Assembly (NCBI GenBank): GCA_964456475.1 | Contig: CAYVZI010000001.1 | Location: forward strand, 11,762-75,761 | Direction of reading: 5' to 3' | Origin: an uncultured Candidatus Saccharibacteria bacterium | Lineage (GTDB): Bacteria; Patescibacteriota; Minisyncoccia; Phycocordibacterales; UBA9973 | DNA length: 64,000 bases | Shown here: one piece after another, positions 3,615 through 54,057 of the stretch | How the letters are laid out: the number at the start of each line of letters is the position of its first letter | Numbering within the stretch: the first letter of the stretch is position 1 | Notes under the pieces: generated by a model | Database searches by the model: none | Told to the model about the DNA's origin: nothing | Seen by the model: only the letters and a program-made list of their open reading frames with translations | Position numbers and translations under genes: made by a program

Positions 3615-4541
3615 TTGTCTGAGACAAAAACAATGGAAAGATCATCAATCATCAGTACAGTCACACTCGTGTTCGTAGTAATTACGATGGTTTTTCTTTT
3701 GAAAACGAACACAGTTCCAAGTATTCTTCTACCCGAGAAGACCACAGAGAATACAGTGCCTATATTGCAACTCCCTGTAGCTGTTAAAAAGATTGAATCA
3801 CCAATTGTACTACCGGGAGGACTCAAGAAGACAAGTGAATCTGATGCAAATAATACACAAGTGCTGCCAGCTGATTATGTTCTCACACGTGCAGGTGTAA
3901 TTTCCGAGACGAACCTGCATCGTGTTAAGTATGGAAAACAAACGTTAGTTGAGAACAAAAAACTTGATAGCTCTGCTCAAGCAAAGGCTGATGATTTACT
4001 CAAACGACAATACTTCGCACACGAAGCACCAGATGGAACAGCAATTGATGACCTGGTTCGTGAACAAGATTACAGCTATATCAAAATCGGAGAGAATCTT
4101 GCTCTCGGGAATTTTTTGAGCAACGCTGATGTAGTCACTGCATGGATGAATAGTCCAGGGCATCGAACAAATATTCTTGATGGTCAGTATACTGAAATTG
4201 GTATTGGGGTCGCTCGAGGTCTCTATGAAGGCCATATGGTATATTTTGCGGTTCAACACTTCGGACGACCAAGATCGTCATGTCCGAGCATAGAGTCAAA
4301 TTTAAAATCACAATTTACAATTGCACAAAAGTATTTGGATGAACTTATCATTTCGATCAATACCCTAAAAGGTGCGATCGACCAGGGGAGCGGGAACAAT
4401 GATGACCTAAATACCCTAATTGAAAAATACAACGCATCAGTGCTTCTTTATAAAGAAGCTTTTCAGAAAGCTGACTCACTCCGCACAAAATATAATGCTG
4501 AGGTTGCTGCATATAATGCTTGCTTAACTGGTGCTCAATAA
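3615..4541 (+). CDS. CAP/SCP (PR-1-like, YkwD-type) domain protein, membrane anchored
   Basis: Motifs HRVKYGKQTL, AQAKADDLL, ENLALG and NSPGHRTNILDGQYTEIGIGV are typical of the CAP domain. N-terminal TM helix. Confidence 0.8.
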   Translation: MSETKTMERSSIISTVTLVFVVITMVFLLKTNTVPSILLPEKTTENTVPILQLPVAVKKIESPIVLPGGLKKTSESDANNTQVLPADYVLTRAGVISETNLHRVKYGKQTLVENKKLDSSAQAKADDLLKRQYFAHEAPDGTAIDDLVREQDYSYIKIGENLALGNFLSNADVVTAWMNSPGHRTNILDGQYTEIGIGVARGLYEGHMVYFAVQHFGRPRSSCPSIESNLKSQFTIAQKYLDELIISINTLKGAIDQGSGNNDDLNTLIEKYNASVLLYKEAFQKADSLRTKYNAEVAAYNACLTGAQ

Positions 4542-4769: not shown

Positions 4770-4844
4770 AATGTATTCTCCCCTCGATGCCTGCCACAAA
4801 TTTTTTCAAAAAAGTTTTCAAAATTATTTTCTTACAAAAATTGT

Positions 4845-4875
4845 GTCATCCCGGACCCTGATCCGGGATCCATGG
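4845..4875 (+). repeat. hairpin element family, copy B
   Basis: gtcatcccggaccctgatccgggatccatgg. The stem atcccgga/tccgggat shows a compensatory change relative to copy A. Confidence 0.7.
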
Positions 4876-5130
4876 GTATCTGAGTTACATCTATGTGACT
4901 CCTTATATGCCTCTCATATATCAAATGGCCTTAAAACGCATTATACGAGATCAAAAATACGAGTTTAGCATCATTATCGACTTGATCCGATAATCCAGTA
5001 ATTTTCTAGTGTTAAAGCATTTTTTACTAATTAGGGTGAGTTGATGGTAGGTACCGTCAATGCAAGACCTTGAGTATTCTGTAATCAGAAAGCGAACGGT
5101 GTACAGTTCCTGTTAGGAAGTCGACTTCCC

Positions 5131-45164: not shown

Positions 45165-46868
45165 CTATACTGCTTTGAGTTCGATAGAGAAAGTTGAGCC
45201 CAACCCCACCCCAGGTGAGTCGATCATAATATGACCGCCATGAGCTTCAGCGATTTGTTTTGCAAGATAGAGTCCAAGACCAGAACCTCCGGTGTTTGTC
45301 TTCCCTCCTGCTCCACGAGAAAACTTTTGGAATAATTTTTCTTTTTCTTCAGCAGAAATTCCCATTCCAGTGTCAGTGACTGCAAGTCGAATCATTCCAG
45401 TATCAGGAATCTTCGAAAGCGAGACGGTAATTGATCCTTTTTCTGTGTACTTGATCGCATTGTCGATAATGTTGAGCATTACCTGGCGAAGTTTTTCCAT
45501 GTCACCATGTATCGTATATGGAGCTTTATTGTCTGTAGTAAATGCAAGTTTCAACCCTTTCTTTTCTGCGGTAATGGAGAGATCTGTTGCGAGGTCTTTT
45601 GCAGCTTTTTCCATATCAAACGGTGCCATCTCGTATTTCATTCCTCCAGCCTCAATCTTAGAAACGTTCAACAAATCCTCGACAACCTTAGAAAGATGAG
45701 TACTTGACTCAAACACACGATTGATAGCATCTTTTTGTTTGTCTTCGAACGTTCCATACGAACCGTCAAGAAGCATTGAAGTGTATCCACGAATTGCAGT
45801 AAGCGGACTGCGAAGCTGATGAGCTGCCAGAGAAAGGAATTCCGTTTTGAGTTTATCCAAATCCTTGAGCTTGTCGTTAGCAACTTCGAGTTTAAGATTT
45901 GATTCTTCGAGTTTGAGTCGGAGCTGTTCTAGTCGCTGTCTTTGTTCAACCTCTTTTTTAACACTTTTAATGAGAAAAACACCTGCAATAATTGCACCTA
46001 TGAAAGTAACTGAATTTAAAAAGTAATTAAAAGAATTTCGAATGAAAAAATATTGTGCTCCAACCAATACGACTATTGACCAAACCAAGGCCTGACTTGC
46101 TAGTAGCTTGATATCGAAAGCTTTGAATTTAACAATCACGTACGCCAGAAAGGCAACAAAGATTGGCATACTAAACAGTCCATATTGCTCAAGGCTATAG
46201 TTACCATTTGTAATATATCCATTGTCTAGAAGATACGACACTCCTACAACAGCGACGAAAAATATTATCAAGAAGAATTCAATCCCCAACGTAAGTAACA
46301 CAAGAGGTTTCCTTGCCTCGCTAGATATAGATTTGTACTTGAATGCTACGTATATAATAGTGAGTACTACAGTAATCAGACTAAATAAATAATAATAAGT
46401 TGTATATAAATTATTTTCGAGAGCTGCGCAATCAGGGGCACTAAAACCTGATAGATTGAAAATTGTTGGTGTCAGGATAAGAATCGGCAAGACAGCCAAC
46501 AGGCCTATCACTTTTCTTCTTACGTGAATATCCTTACCATTATTAATAAAAACGGCGATAAAATAGAAAGAAAATAGATAAATGCAGGTTTGAACAATAC
46601 CAAAGAAAGACCAAGCAAACATGACGATAGTACTGTTGTCATAACGAATCCAAGCGACAAGATCCAACGCTGACCAGACAGCAAAAGATAGTGTAATAAT
46701 GAACAAAATTCTACTCAATAGACTACCTCGATTTTCATATAAAACAAAAAAACCGATCAATAGGGCTACCACCGCCGTTGGAATATGTGAATAATAAAGC
46801 AATTGTGATGCCTGATCTACAATCTCCTTACAAAGGGCTAAATTGGAAGCTGTGTTATAAGTAAACAT
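45165..46868 (-). CDS. sensor histidine kinase with N-terminal multi-TM sensor domain
   Basis: About 7 TM helices, HisKA LAAHQLRSPLTAIRGY, and HATPase_c (GSGLGL). No response regulator is adjacent. Confidence 0.85.
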   Translation of the reverse strand: MFTYNTASNLALCKEIVDQASQLLYYSHIPTAVVALLIGFFVLYENRGSLLSRILFIITLSFAVWSALDLVAWIRYDNSTIVMFAWSFFGIVQTCIYLFSFYFIAVFINNGKDIHVRRKVIGLLAVLPILILTPTIFNLSGFSAPDCAALENNLYTTYYYLFSLITVVLTIIYVAFKYKSISSEARKPLVLLTLGIEFFLIIFFVAVVGVSYLLDNGYITNGNYSLEQYGLFSMPIFVAFLAYVIVKFKAFDIKLLASQALVWSIVVLVGAQYFFIRNSFNYFLNSVTFIGAIIAGVFLIKSVKKEVEQRQRLEQLRLKLEESNLKLEVANDKLKDLDKLKTEFLSLAAHQLRSPLTAIRGYTSMLLDGSYGTFEDKQKDAINRVFESSTHLSKVVEDLLNVSKIEAGGMKYEMAPFDMEKAAKDLATDLSITAEKKGLKLAFTTDNKAPYTIHGDMEKLRQVMLNIIDNAIKYTEKGSITVSLSKIPDTGMIRLAVTDTGMGISAEEKEKLFQKFSRGAGGKTNTGGSGLGLYLAKQIAEAHGGHIMIDSPGVGLGSTFSIELKAV

Positions 46869-46873
46869 ATAAT

Positions 46874-47272
46874 TTATTCAGCACACTGTTCATTATTTAA
46901 AATCGTCCCTGAATCACAATCTCGGTATGAACACTTTTCCTCACCTGGAATACAACTTAATTCAGGAAAGCATCCTAGCTTCTCTGTAGATTCCTGGCAA
47001 AAAGCGATCGAGGACGCCATTTTTGAAATCTCTTTATAAAAAACTATCTGCTCATCAGGATTAGTTGAACATGTTGGATCTGATACTGGATCACATGAGT
47101 AGACAAAACATTTTTCATTCGCTGGATCACAGGTTACGTAATCTGTAATAAGATAATTTTTCAGTACCACAATCTGATAGTACGTAAAAAAAACAACTCC
47201 TAATACGAGAAGAATGACGAAAGCAAAAAATATTTTATTCTTCATGTCTGGCTTTGTCTCCGTGGTTTCCAT
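46874..47272 (-). CDS. membrane-anchored Cys-rich (12 Cys) protein
   Basis: TM helix followed by repeated C..C spacing, typical of a disulfide-rich extracytoplasmic domain. Confidence 0.5.
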   Translation of the reverse strand: METTETKPDMKNKIFFAFVILLVLGVVFFTYYQIVVLKNYLITDYVTCDPANEKCFVYSCDPVSDPTCSTNPDEQIVFYKEISKMASSIAFCQESTEKLGCFPELSCIPGEEKCSYRDCDSGTILNNEQCAE

Positions 47273-48267: not shown

Positions 48268-48762
48268 TTGAAAACAGGTTCGCGACTCGGAAGAATTCTC
48301 TTAGGGATAGGAGCTTTTCTTGCAACGAGTGGTTTCAGCTACTCGTTTGATTATTTTGTTTACCCGATTGTTACCTATTATTTCGGGTTCTCAAAAAGTT
48401 TAATTATTTTATTTCTCGCTGCGCTTATCATGAATTATTTCGTTGTACTTTTGTACGATCTGTTCAAAAAAGATTTTTTTGGATTTGAGGCACTTAAGGA
48501 AATGAAGGAGTCAGGTAACGGCAGAGGTATGATGTACAGAATAATGAAATGGGGCGATATTCCCTTCTTTATCTTTCTTTCATGGTACGACCCAATATTT
48601 GCGGTTTTATACAAAAGGAGGAGTAAAAGCTTTAACGGCTTTAGAAGGAGAGATTATTTTATTCTTGTGCTTAGTACATTAATTGGGTGTATTATCTGGT
48701 CAGGATTTTGGTCAGCAGGTATTGAATTTGTTAAATACATATTTCCACAATGGTTCTCCTAG
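48268..48762 (+). CDS. hypothetical membrane protein (TTG start)
   Basis: 4 predicted TM helices. Its 3' end is duplicated at 50530-50660. Confidence 0.5.
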   Translation: MKTGSRLGRILLGIGAFLATSGFSYSFDYFVYPIVTYYFGFSKSLIILFLAALIMNYFVVLLYDLFKKDFFGFEALKEMKESGNGRGMMYRIMKWGDIPFFIFLSWYDPIFAVLYKRRSKSFNGFRRRDYFILVLSTLIGCIIWSGFWSAGIEFVKYIFPQWFS

Positions 48763-48822
48763 CAATAGCGAGAGCCATTTTTTTATCCTATTTTTAAACA
48801 ATAATGAGAGTCCCTCGTTTCG
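48693..48822 (+). repeat. direct repeat copy 1 (~130 bp; 3' end of the 48268 gene plus 60 bp downstream)
   Basis: About 97% identical to 50530-50660. Confidence 0.85.
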
Positions 48823-49015
48823 ATATAATCTGATTTTATTATAAGTACCCCCCCTTTTTTTGCGTATTAAAAAACAAAACTGCAGTCCCCGCTTGTTTTT
48901 TTTGGCAACTGCCTATGATATTCTTCGTCAGTTAATTTTTTGGACATGAAAATTGTCTTTCTAATTTGACATAGAAATAATACTACTGTAGTTTAATATA
49001 TAAAAATATCTTTAT

Positions 49016-49579
49016 ATGGGACTTATTGAAATAAAGGGAAAGAGGCTAACCTTGAGAGAAATTTCAAAAGATGATCTGCCCCAATTACTCCTTTGGAGAA
49101 ATTCGGAAATCTTTCAAAAATCATGTCTTTCCTACTCGAAAGACTGCACAATTGAAGAACTTGACAGAGAAATTGACATTTCATATCGTCAAGATAAATA
49201 TGCTCAATTTATTGCTTGGACATCAGACGACAAGCCAGTAGGTACGAACTGGATATATCGATACCACAAAACAAATGGCATAGGATTTACCACAACATTT
49301 GTTGATGAGCAATACAGACAAAGTCATTATTATGCGATTGAAATGTTCGCACTCATTTGCAAATATATGTTTAACGAACTTGCTTGTCGAAAGATTTACT
49401 CAGAAGTTCACGCTGGGAATACTCCTTCAATGAATATCTTCAACAAACTTAATCTTCCTCTTGAAGCGACATTTAAGAATCACTCAAAAGTGGGTTTGAA
49501 CGATTTCGAGGATCTGTTGGTTTACGCCTTGTACAAAGAAGCCTTTGAATCCATGAATATTCCAAAAAAACTTTTGTGA
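49016..49579 (+). CDS. GNAT family N-acetyltransferase (RimJ/RimL-like)
   Basis: GNAT fold pattern including the motif A region. Confidence 0.7.
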   Translation: MGLIEIKGKRLTLREISKDDLPQLLLWRNSEIFQKSCLSYSKDCTIEELDREIDISYRQDKYAQFIAWTSDDKPVGTNWIYRYHKTNGIGFTTTFVDEQYRQSHYYAIEMFALICKYMFNELACRKIYSEVHAGNTPSMNIFNKLNLPLEATFKNHSKVGLNDFEDLLVYALYKEAFESMNIPKKLL

Positions 49580-49580
49580 C

Positions 49581-49612
49581 CGCACCAGCATTGGTGTGGT
49601 TTTTTAATATTC
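49581..49612. terminator. bidirectional intrinsic terminator
   Basis: accgcaccagcattggtgtggtttttt. Confidence 0.7.
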
Positions 49613-49846
49613 CATTTTGAGAATTAAACCTTTCGGGATTGAAAAATATTTCGGTTGAGCTTCTGGGTGTTTTTTGTTTGTATGAATATTTAGTGTCTCC
49701 TCGTTTTCTACTATAATATAATCGGCACTTTCTTTGACGAGAGTGCCAATAGTTTTCATCTGACTTGGAGTGCTAATTTCCTCATTCGAGGAATACATGA
49801 ATATATCGTTCCAATATATTGTTACTTGCTGATTATTCTTTATCAT
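49604..49846 (-). CDS. small protein, paralog B of a tandem pair
   Basis: 80 aa. It shares the pattern TIyW.D...P...G.li.E.......KK......IP...ii..K with the upstream ORF. Confidence 0.5.
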   Translation of the reverse strand: MIKNNQQVTIYWNDIFMYSSNEEISTPSQMKTIGTLVKESADYIIVENEETLNIHTNKKHPEAQPKYFSIPKGLILKMEY

Positions 49847-50110
49847 AAAAATCTATCTTTTTAAACTCAATAATTGCATTTTCAGGAATGATAAAGCCAT
49901 TAGTGGGAACCATACTTTTCTTTTCTTTGTCATAGTGAACACTGCATGCAATATTCGTCCATTGTTCGTTTGTCTCTATAATGAAGCCACAGGTCAAATT
50001 AATCTTTGGAGTTTCATTCTCGAGTGCCTGTATATCATCAGTATATGCAGCATCCCGCCAGAGAATAGTACAAATAGGATTTTTATAATTTATGTTTTTT
50101 GTAGCCATGT
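49833..50110 (-). CDS. small protein, paralog A of the tandem pair (trimmed to MATKNINYK)
   Basis: About 92 aa. The ORF-track N-terminal His-rich extension overlaps another frame and was rejected. Confidence 0.45.
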
Positions 50111-50172
50111 AAATAAAATGTAAAAAGTGCAGTAATATTATACCACACTTTTTATTTTTGTAGTGACACGGA

Positions 50173-50382
50173 TTATTTTCCGCTACTACTGCCACCACTA
50201 CTGCTATGTGATGATGACGAATTACTGGATGAATTATTACTCGACGATGCCTTGTGGGCAGCTCTTTCTGGTAATTCACCAGATTTTTGTGCATGATCAC
50301 GTGCATCATGCCAAGCAGACGATACTTCCCTTGTTGAGGAATTGGTATCTCGTGCTGCATCAGATTTAGTATATTCTGACAA
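50173..50382 (-). CDS. small hydrophilic protein with Ser-rich C-terminal tail
   Basis: TTG start preceded by AAGGAGGA at 7 nt, and a TTGACA-N16-TAAAAT promoter about 60 bp upstream. Confidence 0.5.
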   Translation of the reverse strand: MSEYTKSDAARDTNSSTREVSSAWHDARDHAQKSGELPERAAHKASSSNNSSSNSSSSHSSSGGSSSGK

Positions 50383-50529
50383 GTCTATATCCTCCTTTTC
50401 AAGCCTAGTTTTATTCCTGAAAACCTTCCGGAACCTTGCTTAATTATATTTTACTATAATAGGAAAGGTTGTCAATGAAAATACTCATATTCAGTGACTT
50501 AAATAAATAAGTACTGCCACAGGCTGTCT

Positions 50530-50660
50530 TATCTGGTCAGGATTTTGGTCAGCAGGTATTGAATTTGTTAAATACATATTTCCACAATGGTTCTCCTAGC
50601 AATAGCGAGAGCCATTTTTTTATCCTATTTTTTAAACAATAATGAGAATCCCTCGTTTCG
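50530..50660 (+). repeat. direct repeat copy 2 (non-coding remnant of the 48268 gene 3' end)
   Basis: Same as copy 1 apart from 3 differences. It has no start codon. Confidence 0.85.
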
Positions 50661-50710
50661 GTTCTTCATCACTTTGGTTCCACAGACTACGATCTATAAT
50701 ACCGAACTCA

Positions 50711-52042
50711 TTAGTCTAAAAGAAAATGCATAATGGCTGGTGCTTGAATCAATGCATGCGTTTTACCGTATAGCACAAACTGAGAAATCCCGGCCAGATG
50801 ATTCTTTATAATCTGGCCCGCAATGTGTGCGTCTCGATACCCAGCGATGAATGAGGCTATTTCGCGAATAGGATTTTCTTCATTAGTAGGATCAGAGAAA
50901 CGATAAAAAAGATCTGAATCCTCCTGGTTCAATTGGTGACCTGAAATTCTTTGATGAATTTCGGAAAATATTTCAAGCGAATAAGTCGCTTTTGTTAAAT
51001 CATTGAATTCGTCGATAAAATATTGAATGTATGATACAAAGTCAGGTTTATCAGTCTCTTGCGAATACTGATATGCTCGGTCGCACATAAGCGAATAAAA
51101 AACCAGATTAAGTCCATATTTCTCTGATGCATCATCAATTATCTTCTTTTGATCAGGTTCGTAACAAACGGATCGAATCCCTGCTCCTGAAGCGAGAAAC
51201 ATTAGATATCCTCCTTCACCTCCCTGATTGATTATTGATGAGTGTTTGTCAGAAGCCACGTCACGTAAAGCTCCTTCTATCACTACACATCTGTTTTTTC
51301 CTTCGGTATTTGTCAAAAAAACGTCGAATTTTGATTCAATTTCCGTAAACACTGGATCGTTAGGTTCGTATGAATGACGAACCCCTAGATAATAAAGTGT
51401 GGCTTTAGCCGAATCGTATATTTTAAAATAAACATCTTGGTCAGTCTCAAGTTCTTGGACATTAGCATACGAAACAAGTTTGTCCCGAATGGAATCTATG
51501 GAAGTAATTTGATTCATACTTATACTTCTTTGTATAAATTCATAATCCCTCATAATATTGTACGCTGTTTGATAAAAATCTACGTCTGTTGTTTTAAGAA
51601 GCTCAACTTGTTGTCTGAGAATTTTAAGTGTTTCGTTCGGTGACTTCCAAACAACAAAGTGCCCCACTTCAATTTCATCGGCGGTGAGCTGTAGCTCACC
51701 CTTTCCTCCTACGACATCGACAACATAGCAATGAGTAATTACATGCCTATTCCGTGCCGGACGATAATCATCAATCTCTCCAATATATCCTTGAATTGAG
51801 ACATCACAACCAATCTCTTCCTTGCACTCGCGTAAAATTCCCTCTTCGATCGATTCTCCTTCCTCAATTCCACCGCCGGGCAAAAGAAAAAATCCATGGC
51901 GATTCGTGCCAACAAGCGCAATATTTCCTTCCTGATCAAGGGCAACTACACGTCCGGTTAGTCGGTCAATATACTCAACACCATCAAGTGGCGTGTTGCG
52001 ATTCGGTAATACATCTTTTTCATAATAAGTTTTTAGATGCAT
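50711..52042 (-). CDS. NUDIX hydrolase fused to an uncharacterised ~290-aa C-terminal domain
   Basis: Nudix box LPGGGIEEGESIEEGILRECKEEIG at residues 55-80. The C-terminal domain has no recognised motif. Confidence 0.7.
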   Translation of the reverse strand: MHLKTYYEKDVLPNRNTPLDGVEYIDRLTGRVVALDQEGNIALVGTNRHGFFLLPGGGIEEGESIEEGILRECKEEIGCDVSIQGYIGEIDDYRPARNRHVITHCYVVDVVGGKGELQLTADEIEVGHFVVWKSPNETLKILRQQVELLKTTDVDFYQTAYNIMRDYEFIQRSISMNQITSIDSIRDKLVSYANVQELETDQDVYFKIYDSAKATLYYLGVRHSYEPNDPVFTEIESKFDVFLTNTEGKNRCVVIEGALRDVASDKHSSIINQGGEGGYLMFLASGAGIRSVCYEPDQKKIIDDASEKYGLNLVFYSLMCDRAYQYSQETDKPDFVSYIQYFIDEFNDLTKATYSLEIFSEIHQRISGHQLNQEDSDLFYRFSDPTNEENPIREIASFIAGYRDAHIAGQIIKNHLAGISQFVLYGKTHALIQAPAIMHFLLD

Positions 52043-52563
52043 AGTGATTTTAAAAATTCATCTATTTCTTCATTATCTTTAAAGATATAGACTTTTTTGT
52101 TATGAGAATGACTTAAAACTTTCTCCCGCATCATTTTTGTAGGATATTGCAAAATATATTTTACAAGATTCCAACTAATTCTTTCTCGTGTGCCATCAGT
52201 CTTATCAAAAGGTTGCTCTGTATTAAAAATTCGTTTGAAAGCACGCCAGAGACACAGCCATTTTGGAAAATCCAAAAAAATAATCATTGTGGCTTTTTCA
52301 AACCTATCGTCAATTGTCTTACGGTAATTACCGTCAATAATCCACTCTTCTTGATCTTGTAAATCAGTCACCACTCGCAAAAATCCCAGTTTTGAGTACC
52401 GCTCTTTCCATTTATTGGTCCAGTAATACATATCAAGATGATCCACCTTGCGCCCAAGTTTCTGTCCAATCTTGTTTGCCAAGGTTGATTTTCCCGCACC
52501 CGAAACACCAATTATCGCGATTCGACTGAGATTAGACCTCTCCATAACAGAATAATAACACAT
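52033..52563 (-). CDS. P-loop NTPase/kinase (adenylate-kinase-like, topology-modulation FlaR-type)
   Basis: Walker A IIGVSGAGKSTLA and a small kinase-like size. It overlaps the downstream NUDIX gene by 10 nt. Confidence 0.65.
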   Translation of the reverse strand: MCYYSVMERSNLSRIAIIGVSGAGKSTLANKIGQKLGRKVDHLDMYYWTNKWKERYSKLGFLRVVTDLQDQEEWIIDGNYRKTIDDRFEKATMIIFLDFPKWLCLWRAFKRIFNTEQPFDKTDGTRERISWNLVKYILQYPTKMMREKVLSHSHNKKVYIFKDNEEIDEFLKSLCI

Positions 52564-52643: not shown

Positions 52644-52886
52644 ATGAGTAGAATTGTAACAAAGAGTGCAACTATGGGTTGCCAGGATAGCAAGTGCAAA
52701 GGAAAAGAGAAATCAGGTATTTTGACCACCAATGGTCAAACTGCAACCTTTGTTTGTGAGGATGGGCACACAACTCATCTCGAAAAAAAGTCAGGAGAAT
52801 ATATTCCTGTTGATCCATATATAAAACCAAAAAAAAGGCCGGTTTTAGAAGGGGTTTTTAAATGGAGAGGTTATTTTTTCAAGTAA
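52644..52886 (+). CDS. small Cys/His-containing protein
   Basis: 80 aa with Cys/His spacing C-x5-C...C-x3-H, followed by a strong terminator. Confidence 0.5.
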   Translation: MSRIVTKSATMGCQDSKCKGKEKSGILTTNGQTATFVCEDGHTTHLEKKSGEYIPVDPYIKPKKRPVLEGVFKWRGYFFK

Positions 52887-52891
52887 CATGC

Positions 52892-52931
52892 AAAATGGGT
52901 TTGCGACAATTGTCGCAAACCCATTTTTTAA
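52892..52931. terminator. bidirectional intrinsic terminator (15-bp stem)
   Basis: aaatgggtttgcgacaattgtcgcaaacccatttttt. Confidence 0.8.
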
Positions 52932-52965: not shown

Positions 52966-54057
52966 TTACAATCCTTCAGCCTTGAGCGTCTCTATCGCCT
53001 CTTTGGCTTTCTTTGAAAGTTTGTTTGGGATTTTGACTGTCACTTTGACCATCAAGTCTCCTCTTTTTCCGCGTGGATTGGGTACTCCTTTTTCTTTCAC
53101 GCGAAGGATTGTGCCGGATGCGATTCCTTCCGGAATTTCAATCGTGACCGCACCATCCAATGTTTCAATTTTACGATCGGCACCGAGAAGTGCTTCGGAA
53201 AGTTTCACTTCCATATCCATGGTGAGATTTTGTCGATCACGGCGGAATATCGGATGCGATTGTACATTTATTTTTATATACAAATCTCCAGATGTTCCTT
53301 TTCGCACTGCTTCACCGAGTCCAGTCATACGGATCATCTCGCCTGCTTCGATTCCAGCCGGAACACGAATTTCAATTTCTTCTTCCTTGCGTTTTACACC
53401 TGCTCCGTGACAAGAACCACAGAGTTCTGATGGAATTGTTCCCGAGCCATGACATGCGTCACATTCACGCGTTGTAACAAACGATCCAAGCATTGAGCGA
53501 CGAGTCTCTCGAATTTGTCCCTTTCCATTACATTGACTACAGGTGATTTGTTTTGCTCCGGCTTTTGCGCCTGAACCAGTACAGGTATCACAGGTAGAAA
53601 CTTTTGTTATCAAAATTTTACGAACCGTTCCAAAGATACTATCAGCAAAAGGGATCGTAATTTCAGTAGAAATATCACGCCCACGACGTGTTTGTGAGCC
53701 CCCACGAGCCCCACCACCAAAGAAATCAGAGAAGATATCTCCTAGGTCGCCCATGTCAAAACCCTGGCCGTTTTGGAAGCCTGAGAAGTCAAAACCACCC
53801 ATATTGGATGGGTCAAAGCCTTGCCCACCTCCGAATCCACCTTGTGGTCCAGCAGAGCCAAATCGGTCGTATTGAGCGCGTTTAGAGTCGTCAGAAAGCG
53901 TCTGATAAGCCTCGTTTACCTCCTTGAATTTCGCATCATCACCCTTGTTCTTGTCAGGGTGGTATTTATGAGCCATCTTATGAAAGGCCTTTTTAATCTC
54001 CTCTTTTGAGGAAGTTTTTGAAACGCCTAAAATTTCGTAATAGTCTTTATTCGCCAT
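52966..54057 (-). CDS. dnaJ: chaperone DnaJ
   Basis: J domain with HPD, a G/F-rich region, and four CxxCxGxG zinc-finger repeats. Confidence 0.95.
   Translation of the reverse strand: MANKDYYEILGVSKTSSKEEIKKAFHKMAHKYHPDKNKGDDAKFKEVNEAYQTLSDDSKRAQYDRFGSAGPQGGFGGGQGFDPSNMGGFDFSGFQNGQGFDMGDLGDIFSDFFGGGARGGSQTRRGRDISTEITIPFADSIFGTVRKILITKVSTCDTCTGSGAKAGAKQITCSQCNGKGQIRETRRSMLGSFVTTRECDACHGSGTIPSELCGSCHGAGVKRKEEEIEIRVPAGIEAGEMIRMTGLGEAVRKGTSGDLYIKINVQSHPIFRRDRQNLTMDMEVKLSEALLGADRKIETLDGAVTIEIPEGIASGTILRVKEKGVPNPRGKRGDLMVKVTVKIPNKLSKKAKEAIETLKAEGL

What the first reader, a model, noticed from the sequence alone, without database searches (positions are those of the whole stretch)
49604..50382. Convergent mini-operon: Ser-rich peptide plus two tandem paralogous ~85-aa proteins of unknown family, opposite a GNAT
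The first gene (50382..50173) has a TTG start, an AAGGAGGA SD at 7 nt, and a TTGACA-N16-TAAAAT promoter. It encodes a hydrophilic protein ending in ...SSSNNSSSNSSSSHSSSGGSSSGK. The next two ORFs are paralogs sharing T-I-[YL]-W-x-D ... P ... G-x-[LI]-[VI]-x-E ... KK ... [FY]-x-I-P ... K. Tandem small paralogs beside an acetyltransferase inside an insertion are reminiscent of immunity-protein arrays or toxin-antitoxin-like cargo. A GNAT toxin such as the AtaT/TacT type is a hypothesis only.
Basis: inference. Interest (0 to 1): 0.5.

Follow-up and report, generated by a model that had tools for sequence, protein, structure and literature searches.

The report
Conserved small-protein module of Patescibacteria
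The three small genes and the acetyltransferase are real and form an uncharacterised gene module found only in the tiny-celled Patescibacteria; the acetyltransferase occurs exactly where the small tailed protein ends in Ser-Gly-Lys, and nothing supports a toxin-antitoxin or immunity function.

Summary
On the minus strand lie pepS (50382..50173, TTG start, Shine-Dalgarno (SD) site and promoter as described), P2 (50108..49833, 91 aa) and P3 (49846..49604, 80 aa). A GNAT acetyltransferase (49016..49579) converges on them.

P2 and P3 are true paralogs (hhalign 95.8%, E 8e-9). P2 models as a five-strand Sm/SH3-like barrel. Natural P2-P3 fusions exist. P2 is typically acidic and P3 basic.

pepS has a conserved N-terminal two-helix domain (pLDDT 90-95) and a disordered polar tail. 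The Ser richness itself is not conserved, but 50 of 78 homologs end in SGK.

pepS, P2 and P3 recur together in about 30 Patescibacteria loci with unrelated neighbours. A terminator-like hairpin follows pepS in about 22 of 26 loci.

The GNAT is present in 14 of 14 loci where pepS ends in SGK (once SSK) and in 0 of 9 with other ends. Two prospective look-ups agreed. Its nearest solved relatives are SpeG and AAC(6'), not TacT/AtaT toxins or RimI/J/L.

Best reading (inferred): P2-P3 is a heterodimeric adaptor for the pepS head, and the GNAT acetylates the SGK tail.

In the window the module sits between 138-nt direct repeats. The toxin/immunity interpretation is not supported.

The parts
50448..50475 (-). 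sigma-70-like promoter of pepS (TTGACA-N16-TAAAAT)
   Evidence: 11/12 match, the best site in 48600-50800. Consensus match only, no expression data.
50390..50397 (-). Shine-Dalgarno AAGGAGGA, 7 nt upstream of the TTG start
   Evidence: Read directly from the sequence.
50173..50382 (-). pepS: 69-aa protein with a conserved N-terminal two-helix head (residues about 4-35) and a disordered Ser-rich tail ending SGK
   Evidence: The family has 415 members with E <= 0.01. Alignment of 78 sequences: H25 and A27 invariant; Y4, D8, A9, T13, V20, W24 and R28 at least 90% conserved. SGK terminus in 50/78. AF2: helices 6-13 and 17-34 at pLDDT 90-95, tail at 55-65.
50121..50154 (-). stem-loop plus T-run between pepS and P2 (terminator or attenuator); a TATAAT sequence sits in its loop
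   Evidence: An equivalent strong hairpin with a T-run occurs in about 22 of 26 distinct loci, z -3 to -9 against shuffles.
49833..50108 (-). P2: 91-aa small beta-barrel protein, acidic in the window (pI 4.9)
49604..49846 (-). P3: 80-aa paralog of P2; its start overlaps the P2 stop by 14 nt
   Evidence: Family alignment A3: W12, D14, G34, I70 and P71 invariant. hhalign against the P2 family: 95.8%, E 7.7e-9. Family median pI 9.4, but the window's copy is 5.6.
49578..49601 (.). bidirectional terminator-like hairpin shared by the convergent P3 and GNAT genes
   Evidence: 10-bp stem with 5 GC pairs and a T-run on the + strand. The complementary T-run on the - strand is read.
49016..49579 (+). GNAT N-acetyltransferase, 187 aa; member of a module-specific subfamily nearest SpeG/AAC(6')
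   Evidence: Pfam Acetyltransf_3 at 1.2e-13. Subfamily alignment A6 has 16 invariant columns. Profile against PDB. NCBIfam. The first Gly of the AcCoA-loop signature is Tyr in the window and in L005.
48685..48825 (+). left direct repeat: the 3' end of the 164-aa membrane-protein ORF (48268..48762) plus about 60 nt downstream
50522..50660 (+). right direct repeat (97% identical copy), lying between the pepS promoter and the NUDIX gene
   Evidence: A related strain (L066) lacks 50533-50616 of it but keeps the distal 44 nt.

Best explanation
This is one copy of a self-contained small-protein module specific to Patescibacteria (CPR). It has a constant core and optional enzymes.

Shown:
- The core is pepS plus the pair P2-P3.
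- P2 and P3 are paralogous Sm/SH3-like five-strand barrels.
- pepS has a conserved N-terminal helical hairpin and an exchangeable C-terminal tail. The tail is a disordered polar stretch ending SGK, a short Lys-rich end, or a CFI-box-CTERM membrane domain.
- The GNAT is present exactly when the tail ends in SGK.

Inferred:
- P2 and P3 act as an obligate heterodimer. The grounds are overlapping genes, typically opposite charge and natural fusions.
- pepS is made in excess from its own promoter-terminator unit.
- Its helical head docks on the P2-P3 heterodimer.
- The SpeG/AAC(6')-like GNAT N-acetylates the SGK tail, most likely the epsilon-amine of the terminal lysine, which resembles the aminoalkyl substrates of its nearest relatives. 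This would switch the charge or the interactions of the tail.

The cellular process served is unknown. In this genome the module appears to have been acquired by recombination between 138-nt repeats.
For: Linkage:
- pepS>P2>P3 is adjacent in about 25 distinct loci from Saccharibacteria, Parcubacteria and other CPR MAGs and groundwater metagenomes. Neighbours are unrelated and gene order is sometimes shuffled (L043: P3>pepS>P2>GNAT; L031: P2>P3>pepS).

Heterodimer:
- Paralogy.
- P2 median pI 4.9 against P3 9.4.
- Gene overlap of 4-20 nt.
- Fusion proteins P0087 and P0097 have a P2-profile N-half and a P3-profile C-half.

pepS anatomy. CFI-box-CTERM variants score 73-94 bits against a cut-off of 40.

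Separate, strong expression unit: promoter and a conserved hairpin with T-run after pepS in about 22 of 26 loci.

Coupling of GNAT to the tail:
- 14 of 14 loci with an SGK (once SSK) end and adequate flanks carry the module GNAT, against 0 of 9 with other ends.
- Two prospective look-ups behaved as predicted.
- The two states are interleaved on a P2+P3 similarity clustering, for example within one 55%-identity cluster.
- Where upstream, the GNAT usually lies 4-140 nt from pepS on the same strand.

GNAT chemistry: the nearest solved relatives acetylate primary amines on alkyl chains, namely SpeG at 6e-16 and AAC(6') at 5e-13.

Precedent, from general knowledge and not tested here: bacterial protein acetyltransferases of the Pat/AcuA type acetylate the Lys of the ...SGK motif of acetyl-CoA synthetase.
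Against: - No physical interaction or acetylation has been shown. Every mechanistic step is inferred from co-occurrence.
- The count of 14 against 0 is not phylogenetically corrected. One CFI-box locus (L012) has a more canonical GNAT 1 kb away.
- The window's GNAT is the most divergent member of its subfamily. Like L005, it has Tyr in place of the first Gly of the AcCoA-binding loop, so activity here is uncertain.
- pepS occurs without P2-P3 in two loci (L062, L067).
- P2-P3 occurs without a detected pepS in several loci, next to HExxH and radical-SAM genes.
- The window's own P3 is not basic (pI 5.6).
Confidence: 0.35

Rival explanations
1. RiPP-like pathway. pepS (conserved 'leader', variable 'core') is a precursor peptide. 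P2-P3 is a new two-subunit peptide-recognition or chaperone element that hands peptides to whichever enzyme is encoded nearby: GNAT, radical SAM/SPASM or HExxH peptidase.
For: - pepS has a conserved N-terminal part and a hypervariable C-terminal part.
- A hairpin attenuator follows it, as after many precursor genes.
- P2-P3 lies beside radical SAM/SPASM peptide-maturase-like genes in L012, L024 and L053. In L053 a Cys-rich 46-aa peptide lies directly after the maturase.
- HExxH-motif proteins adjoin the module in six distinct loci.
- P0043 joins a P2 domain to a SPASM-type C-terminal half.
Against: - Many pepS-P2-P3 loci encode no enzyme at all, for example L015, L033 and L063-65 between trigger factor and NusA.
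- There is no consistent protease or exporter.
- The tail can be a membrane domain.
- P2 is an all-beta barrel, not the PqqD-like winged helix of known RiPP recognition elements.
- The radical-SAM loci have their own Cys-rich peptide and lack pepS, so the adjacency may only reflect islands of accessory genes.
- P0043 may be a deletion or an assembly chimera.
Confidence: 0.15
2. Toxin-antitoxin-like pair. The GNAT is a growth-inhibiting acetyltransferase. pepS is its antidote: its SGK tail plugs the active site as a pseudo-substrate.
For: - GNAT>pepS is a tight same-strand pair in most GNAT-bearing loci.
- The GNAT occurs only with SGK-tailed pepS.
- pepS is a small acidic helical protein with a disordered C-terminal tail, like many antitoxins. 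RHH antitoxins, including KacA and TacA, appear among its fold matches, though these are insignificant.
- Distribution is patchy, contexts vary, and tRNA genes adjoin the module in L009 and L016.
Against: - The GNAT profile finds no TacT/AtaT/KacT-type toxin among the 60 best PDB matches. The nearest are SpeG and AAC(6').
- No DUF1778/RHH Pfam hit for pepS, P2 or P3.
- No PADLOC hit.
- pepS is far more widespread than the GNAT and is tied to P2-P3, which a TA model does not explain.
- In the window and in L005 the GNAT is convergent, with its own terminator, so it is not co-transcribed with pepS.
Confidence: 0.12
3. Sm-like RNA-binding complex. P2-P3 assembles into an Hfq/Lsm-like hetero-oligomeric ring that binds RNA in organisms that mostly lack Hfq. 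pepS is a regulator or partner.
For: - Heteromeric paralog pairs are typical of Lsm and Gemin proteins.
- P3 is typically basic.
Against: - No Pfam LSM or Hfq hit at E <= 1 and no PDB sequence hit.
- The model has no N-terminal Sm helix.
- The conserved motifs (WxDA, TxG, DGFxIP) are not Sm1/Sm2.
- P2 is acidic.
Confidence: 0.1
4. The GNAT is unrelated cargo, an ordinary SpeG-like polyamine or AAC(6')-like aminoglycoside acetyltransferase that merely neighbours the small genes.
For: Nearest relatives are SpeG, AAC(6'), PseH and ArsN1. About half of the triads lack it. In the window it is convergent.
Against: - Presence tracks the pepS SGK terminus 14/14 against 0/9, with two prospective confirmations and interleaved states.
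- The GNATs form one coherent subfamily with 16 invariant columns.
- They stay beside the triad in four different arrangements: upstream same strand, divergent, convergent, and downstream.
- None reaches an NCBIfam equivalog cut-off where the cut-off is shown (PseH 26.7 bits against 93.1 for the window protein).
Confidence: 0.1

Closest known systems
Protein-lysine and polyamine GNAT acetyltransferases: SpeG; Pat/AcuA acting on the ...SGK motif of acetyl-CoA synthetase
   Same: Single-domain GNAT of about 185 aa. The profile is closest to SpeG and AAC(6'). The candidate substrate ends in S-G-K, the same tripeptide that carries the acetylated Lys in AMP-forming acyl-CoA synthetases (general knowledge).
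   Different: - Not an equivalog of any named family.
- The candidate substrate is a 50-80-aa dedicated small protein encoded next door, not an enzyme.
- There is no PX4GK proline.
- No activity has been tested.
GNAT/RHH type II toxin-antitoxin systems (TacAT, AtaRT, KacAT, ItaRT)
   Same: A GNAT next to a small acidic protein that has a helical N-terminal part and a disordered C-terminal part. Patchy, mobile-looking distribution.
   Different: - No sequence relation of the GNAT to these toxins among the best PDB matches.
- No DUF1778 domain.
- Where co-directional, the order is enzyme first.
- The small protein is usually found without the GNAT and is tied to two barrel proteins.
Sm/Lsm/Hfq-type small beta-barrels, including heterodimeric Gemin6-Gemin7 and the Sm-like Naa38 subunit of the NatC acetyltransferase
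   Different: No Sm1/Sm2 sequence motifs, no N-terminal helix, and no LSM or Hfq profile hit. No evidence of ring formation or RNA binding.
RiPP gene clusters with a small recognition protein (PqqD-like RRE) and an attenuator after the precursor gene
   Same: Small peptide with a conserved head and a variable tail, followed by a hairpin. Small accessory proteins. Occasional radical SAM/SPASM, peptidase-like and GNAT neighbours.
   Different: The barrel fold is unlike the winged-helix RRE. Many loci have no enzyme. There is no conserved protease or exporter. The tail can be a membrane anchor.
Uncharacterised caudoviral proteins of the same fold (PHROG 25889; BFVD entries such as Pelagibacter phage HTVC025P A0A4Y1NU41)
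   Same: Same size and fold: Foldseek E 1e-5 to 1e-3, TM 0.6-0.7. PHROG profile E 1.3e-3 over the full length.
   Different: Identity is 12-22%. No function is known. No homolog was found in 2.9 million viral contigs by pattern plus tblastn or in GenBank phages.

Membership tests
GNAT-toxin / RHH-antitoxin TA system (TacAT/AtaRT/KacAT type) | Toxin is a GNAT homologous to TacT/AtaT/KacT/ItaT | tested here: not met
   Subfamily profile against all PDB sequences: the best matches are SpeG (6e-16), AAC(6') and FdhC, with RimJ and RimL further off. No toxin is among the 60 best of 70 hits. The single sequence finds only FdhC at E 0.007. No NCBIfam or PADLOC toxin model hits.
GNAT-toxin / RHH-antitoxin TA system (TacAT/AtaRT/KacAT type) | Cognate DUF1778/RHH antitoxin gene adjacent to, usually upstream of and overlapping, the toxin gene | tested here: not met
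GNAT-toxin / RHH-antitoxin TA system (TacAT/AtaRT/KacAT type) | GNAT is toxic (acetylates aminoacyl-tRNA) and is neutralised by the partner | not testable with these tools
   Needs expression and toxicity assays.
Housekeeping ribosomal-protein acetyltransferases RimI/RimJ/RimL | Reaches the NCBIfam equivalog model, or is closest to the Rim enzymes | tested here: not met
   The window GNAT has no Rim hit at E <= 1. 7 of 12 subfamily members hit the RimJ model only weakly (best 1.5e-4). In PDB, RimJ (7e-8) and RimL (4e-5) rank well below SpeG.
SpeG spermidine N1-acetyltransferase | Equivalog-level similarity to SpeG | tested here: inconclusive
   SpeG is the nearest solved family (6e-16), and 10 of 12 subfamily members hit NF011709 (best 7.6e-12). 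The window protein itself gives no SpeG hit at E <= 0.01. Substrate was not tested.
Sm/Lsm/Hfq superfamily | Sm fold: N-terminal helix plus five strongly bent strands | tested here: inconclusive
Sm/Lsm/Hfq superfamily | Sm1/Sm2 sequence motifs, or a hit to the LSM or Hfq profiles | tested here: not met
   No Pfam hit to LSM or Hfq at E <= 1. The P2 and P3 profiles find nothing in PDB at E <= 10.
RiPP biosynthetic gene cluster | Precursor peptide with a conserved leader and a variable core | tested here: inconclusive
   pepS has this layout. However, the conserved part is a confidently folded helical hairpin, and the tail keeps a conserved SGK end or is a membrane domain.
RiPP biosynthetic gene cluster | Class-defining modifying enzyme encoded with the precursor | tested here: not met
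   Many pepS-P2-P3 loci contain no enzyme gene. Radical SAM/SPASM genes occur only in loci without an SGK-tailed pepS (L024 and L053 lack pepS; L012 has a CFI-box pepS).
RiPP biosynthetic gene cluster | PqqD-like RRE for leader binding | tested here: not met
   P2 is all-beta. Neither P2 nor P3 gives a PqqD Pfam hit.
Integrative mobile element (site-specific insertion with att duplication) | Direct repeats flanking the cargo, one of them restoring the 3' end of the target gene | tested here: met
   138-nt repeats at 97% identity. The left copy is the end of ORF 48268..48762.
Integrative mobile element (site-specific insertion with att duplication) | Own integrase or recombinase, or a documented empty site | tested here: not met
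   There is no recombinase within the 1.84-kb unit. No empty-site contig was recovered. The related strain L066 carries the module at the same NUDIX junction with a shorter repeat.

The most novel reading that the evidence does not exclude
P2-P3 is a previously unrecognised two-subunit beta-barrel peptide-recognition module of CPR bacteria. It binds the conserved helical head of pepS, and possibly other small peptides, and presents their tails to interchangeable enzymes: the SGK-specific GNAT, radical SAM/SPASM maturases or HExxH peptidases. It would then be a new functional analogue of the RiPP recognition element and would define a new family of modified small proteins in organisms thought to have little secondary metabolism.
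Probability: 0.12. Interest if true: 0.75.

Novelty: categorically new. Interest (0 to 1): 0.5.

Why it matters
Patescibacteria make up a large share of bacterial diversity, and most of their small genes are unannotated. This analysis has four results.

- It turns three 'hypothetical' ORFs, two of them mis-called in public records, into a defined and recurrent module.
- It gives a rule that survived two prospective look-ups: the acetyltransferase is present if and only if the small protein ends in SGK.
- It provides a concrete, cheap experiment: mass spectrometry of pepS with and without the GNAT, and pull-down of P2-P3.
- It removes an attractive but unsupported toxin-antitoxin annotation.

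If the module proves to be a dedicated protein-acetylation switch or a new peptide-recognition pair, it would be a new piece of CPR cell biology. If not, it remains a well-delimited family for structural genomics.

Tried and rejected
- **Profile libraries.** Pfam, NCBIfam, PHROGs and PADLOC scans of pepS, P2 and P3 gave nothing above noise, apart from PHROG 25889 at 1.3e-3.
- **PDB sequence searches.** Profiles of P2, P3 and pepS found nothing.
- **Rfam and tRNA scans of the window.** Empty.
- **Viral origin.** No relative in IMG/VR by pattern plus tblastn or in GenBank phages. Only fold-level resemblance to unnamed phage proteins.
- **Tandem-repeat origin of the Ser tract.** No array detected.
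- **Empty-site search.** Exact-protein look-ups of the flanking genes failed. Short contigs from other samples all break inside the repeats, as expected for k-mer assemblers, and say nothing about a circular form.
- **The 175-aa ORF over pepS.** Rejected as a gene. Most homologs of P2 are 82-104 aa and start near MKKNP. The extension is open only in a few loci and is out of frame with the conserved pepS.
- **NUDIX genes.** They recur near the module (window, L009, L012, L014, L018, L047, L054) but at varying distance and orientation. I did not treat them as part of it.
- **afdb50 fold library.** Unavailable.
- **Literature searches.** Searches for CFI-box, the CFIATAA motif, CPR RiPPs and Sm-like proteins in CPR found nothing relevant.
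Full report
**1. What is in the window**

On the minus strand, in order:
- a TTGACA-N16-TAAAAT promoter-like site (50475..50448, 11/12, the best in the region);
- AAGGAGGA, a 7-nt spacer, and a TTG start;
- pepS (50382..50173, 69 aa);
- a 14-bp stem-loop followed by a T-run (50154..50121);
- P2 (50108..49833, 91 aa);
- P3 (49846..49604, 80 aa, overlapping P2 by 14 nt);
- a hairpin with T-runs on both strands (49578-49601), which also ends the convergent GNAT gene (49016..49579, +).

Public gene calls for this DNA are wrong at two points. P2 is merged with an out-of-frame upstream extension into a 175-aa ORF that runs across pepS (P0024). P3 is started at Met17 (64 aa, P0023), which removes the strand carrying the invariant Trp and Asp.

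**2. The genes are real and the two barrels are paralogs**

- P2 has 22 homologs at 41-66% identity in the 5.8-billion-protein set. An exhaustive profile search of 1.84 billion representatives finds 84 clusters, nearly all 60-120 aa.
- P3 homologs were collected from the gene next to P2 in 25 loci.
- Direct BLASTP of P2 against P3 is marginal (E 0.036). The two family profiles align over their full length with 95.8% probability and E 7.7e-9. A P2-only HMM picks out the window's P3 at 5.7e-5.
- The shared signature is W-x-D-A on strand 1, T-x-G at the start of strand 2, and [FY]-x-I-P before the last strand.
- No sequence profile of any library recognises P2 or P3. The only exception is an unnamed phage family, PHROG 25889 at 1.3e-3, which agrees with fold matches to unnamed caudoviral proteins.

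**3. P2 and P3 probably act as a heterodimer (inference)**

- Their genes overlap in almost every locus.
- P2 is typically acidic (median pI 4.9) and P3 basic (9.4). The window's own P3 is an exception at pI 5.6.
- Single-chain fusions exist in which the N-half scores best with the P2 profile and the C-half with the P3 profile: P0087 (1.6e-17 and 4.7e-12) and P0097 (2.2e-7 and 1.5e-18).

**4. pepS**

- A profile of the family finds 415 proteins (E <= 0.01). All are short and none carries an informative name; the few names given by sources are 'hypothetical protein'.
- The first roughly 40 residues are strongly conserved: Y-x-K-x-D-A-A-K-D-T-[GND]-x-S-x-x-x-V-S-x-A-W-H-x-A-R-x-D-A.
- AF2 models them as two helices (6-13 and 17-34) at pLDDT 90-95. 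The rest is disordered.
- The tail varies in length (4-30 residues) and composition. The Ser run in the window is an extreme case and is not a family trait. However, 50 of 78 sequences end in S-G-K.
- In several lineages the tail is replaced by a CFI-box-CTERM domain (NF041770, 73-94 bits against a cut-off of 40; L012, L023, L047; the 127-aa pepS of L063-65 has the L023-type C-terminal end), by a Cys plus a transmembrane helix (L031), or by a short Lys-rich end.
- Fold and profile searches give nothing significant. The head has the residue pattern of a helix-turn-helix motif but is acidic (about -3), so I read it as a protein-binding hairpin.

**5. The module elsewhere**

- All genome hits are Patescibacteria MAGs: Saccharibacteria, Parcubacteria and 'Patescibacteria group'. 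Metagenome loci come largely from groundwater and similar samples.
- Across about 30 distinct loci, P2 and P3 are adjacent wherever the contig allows. pepS is next to them in about 25 loci. The module-type GNAT is present in about 14.
- The commonest order is GNAT>pepS>P2>P3 on one strand. Other arrangements are:
  - window, L005 and L013: GNAT convergent downstream;
  - L060: GNAT divergent upstream;
  - L043: P3>pepS>P2>GNAT;
  - L031: P2>P3>pepS.
- Flanking genes differ from genome to genome: HisK and CysRS; tRNA-Gly and LepA; trigger factor, PPase and NusA; between two tRNA-Ser genes; and others. This is linkage without synteny, the classical sign of a functional unit.
- The pepS-P2 spacer holds a strong GC-rich hairpin followed by Ts in about 22 of 26 distinct loci (z -3 to -9). 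A TATAAT-like box often lies shortly before the P2 start. pepS is therefore probably a separate, highly expressed unit, and P2-P3 has its own, possibly near-leaderless, transcript (inference).

**6. The GNAT and the SGK tail**

- Among distinct loci with enough flanking DNA, all 14 whose pepS ends in SGK (SSK once) carry the module GNAT. None of the 9 with other ends does. L012 (CFI-box pepS) is left out of the nine; it has a more canonical GNAT 1 kb away (section 11).
- I then made two predictions from tail sequence alone. P0163 (...DSGK) should have the GNAT, and P0212 (...GNKK) should not. Both held.
- On a clustering of concatenated P2+P3, the two states are interleaved. Within one cluster, L060, L009, L021 and L020 (GNAT, SGK) sit among L027 (DKK), L063 and L023 (CFI-box), L031 (TM) and L035 (no pepS). 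In the 'GELPER' subtype of pepS heads, the window and L005 (GNAT, SGK) contrast with L015 and L033 (no GNAT, KK). Several independent gains or losses are therefore needed.
- The GNATs form one subfamily with 16 invariant columns. Its profile is closest to SpeG spermidine N1-acetyltransferases (6e-16) and AAC(6') enzymes (5e-13). RimJ (7e-8), RimL (4e-5) and PseH are more distant. No GNAT toxin is among the 60 best matches (NCBIfam).
- These relatives acetylate primary amines at the end of alkyl chains. That makes the epsilon-amine of a C-terminal lysine on a flexible tail a chemically natural substrate (inference). From general knowledge, the Lys of the ...SGK motif of acetyl-CoA synthetase is the classical target of bacterial GNAT protein acetyltransferases.
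- Caveat: the window's enzyme is the most divergent member. Like L005, it has Tyr in place of the first Gly of the AcCoA-loop signature.

**7. Other recurrent neighbours**

- Loci without an SGK-tailed pepS often have other enzymes beside P2-P3: radical SAM/SPASM peptide-maturase-like proteins in L012, L024 and L053.
- In L053 a Cys-rich 46-aa peptide starts at the 3' end of the maturase gene.
- HExxH-motif proteins of at least three families, with no detectable sequence similarity between them, adjoin the module in L012, L014, L024, L028, L051 and L053.
- P0043 joins a P2 domain to the C-terminal half of such a maturase.
- This keeps a RiPP-type reading alive. Against it, many triads have no enzyme at all, and the barrel is not a PqqD-like recognition element.

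**8. The 'insertion'**

- The four genes lie between 138-nt direct repeats (48685-48825 and 50522-50660, 97% identical). The left copy is the 3' end of a 164-aa membrane-protein ORF plus about 60 nt.
- There is no recombinase inside, base composition matches the surroundings, and no empty site was found.
- Contigs from five other samples carry the same DNA at 99-100% identity and end inside the repeats, as assemblers do at repeats.
- A related strain (L066, 96-99% identity) has the module at the same NUDIX junction. It lacks 84 nt of the right repeat, the part copied from the membrane gene, and keeps the distal 44 nt.
- The structure fits integration by recombination at a short sequence downstream of the membrane gene. 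The mechanism is not established.

**9.

- Confirmed: real genes, real paralogs, and real linkage to a GNAT inside repeat-flanked cargo.
- Not supported: immunity array or AtaT/TacT-type toxin.
  - No homology to those toxins was found.
  - No RHH/DUF1778 partner exists, and no ORF overlaps the GNAT 5' end.
  - There are no defence-system hits.
  - The GNAT is optional.
- One TA-like variant cannot be excluded without experiments: pepS as a pseudo-substrate inhibitor of the GNAT. It does not explain P2-P3.

**10. Novelty and score**

- None of the three small proteins belongs to a described family.
- The architecture matches no system I could test it against: a modular-tailed helical protein, a paralogous barrel pair, and an enzyme whose presence follows a C-terminal tripeptide.
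- The module is restricted to CPR bacteria, where unannotated small genes are common, so a specialist would be interested rather than astonished.
- The function remains inferred. I rate interest at 0.5.

**11. Limits**

- All mechanistic steps rest on co-occurrence, predicted structures of moderate confidence and generic fold matches.
- The 14-against-0 association is small and not phylogenetically corrected.
- One CFI-box locus (L012) has a more canonical GNAT 1 kb away.
- pepS occurs without P2-P3 in two loci (L062, L067).

Noticed in passing
window 48685-48825 and 50522-50660; L066:963-1008: 138-nt direct repeats (97% identical) bracket the four-gene block. The left one is the 3' end of a membrane-protein ORF. 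A related strain (L066) has the same NUDIX-module junction but lacks 84 nt of the right repeat (window 50533-50616) and keeps only the distal 44 nt.
   Followed up: partly
window 49833-50360 (-) and 49604-49798 (-): Public gene calls are wrong here. A 175-aa ORF (P0024) fuses P2 to an out-of-frame read through pepS. P3 is called from Met17 (64 aa, P0023), losing the invariant W12/D14 strand. Similar long out-of-frame ORFs across pepS occur in a few other loci (P0030, P0064, P0065, L020).
   Followed up: yes
L053:2667-5484 (same in L035, L036): Apparent RiPP cluster next to P2-P3. A radical SAM/SPASM maturase-like gene (best match PapB/ranthipeptide, below cut-off) is followed directly by a Cys-rich 46-aa ORF (4012-4152, ...ECECAQCTDCNCPDGDCCTDS), a 250-aa HExxH protein, and then P2 and P3. 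A second radical SAM gene lies at 317-1345.
   Followed up: partly
L012:5496-5900, L023:4550-4933, L047:4538-4882, L063:4001-4384: pepS variants in which the polar tail is replaced by another C-terminal domain. In L012, L023 and L047 it is a CFI-box-CTERM domain (NF041770, 73-94 bits; motif GG-C-[FL]-I-A-T-A-[AV]-[YF]); the L063 protein has the L023-type C-terminal end and was not scanned itself. No paper in the library mentions this domain.
   Followed up: partly
window 50711-52563 (-): A 443-aa protein with an N-terminal NUDIX domain and a long C-terminal region without Pfam matches other than a weak CEP44 hit (E 0.031). It hits PADLOC candidate PDC-S07 at 8e-10. It overlaps by 10 nt the end of the upstream 176-aa P-loop NTPase gene. 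NUDIX genes also lie near the module in L009, L012, L014, L018, L047 and L054.
   Followed up: no
L016:5029-6864: Here P2-P3 (without a detected pepS) sits between two tRNA-Ser genes (anticodons gct and act) amid 42-105-nt repeated segments. This suggests insertion or duplication at a tRNA locus. In L009 the module starts 140 nt after a tRNA-Gly.
   Followed up: no
L062:4001-4174; L067:3501-3659: pepS homologs with Lys-rich ends occur without P2, P3 or GNAT, flanked by unrelated membrane and coiled-coil-like proteins. L067 also has a 40-aa highly acidic ORF (4780-4902) nearby.
   Followed up: partly
window 52892-52927: Perfect 36-nt palindrome (18-nt arms, no loop) between the 80-aa ORF 52644..52886 and the DnaJ-like gene (52966..54057). 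It is probably a bidirectional terminator.
   Followed up: no
window 46874-47272 (-): 132-aa ORF with an N-terminal hydrophobic helix and a Cys-rich C-terminal part (15 Cys) next to a 7TM-type histidine kinase (45165..46868). It has no family hit.
   Followed up: no
window 50136-50141 within hairpin 50121-50154; same in L005: A TATAAT sequence sits in the loop of the pepS terminator hairpin. Many other loci have a TATAAT-like box 7-25 nt before the P2 start, which hints at a short-leader or leaderless P2-P3 transcript.
   Followed up: no
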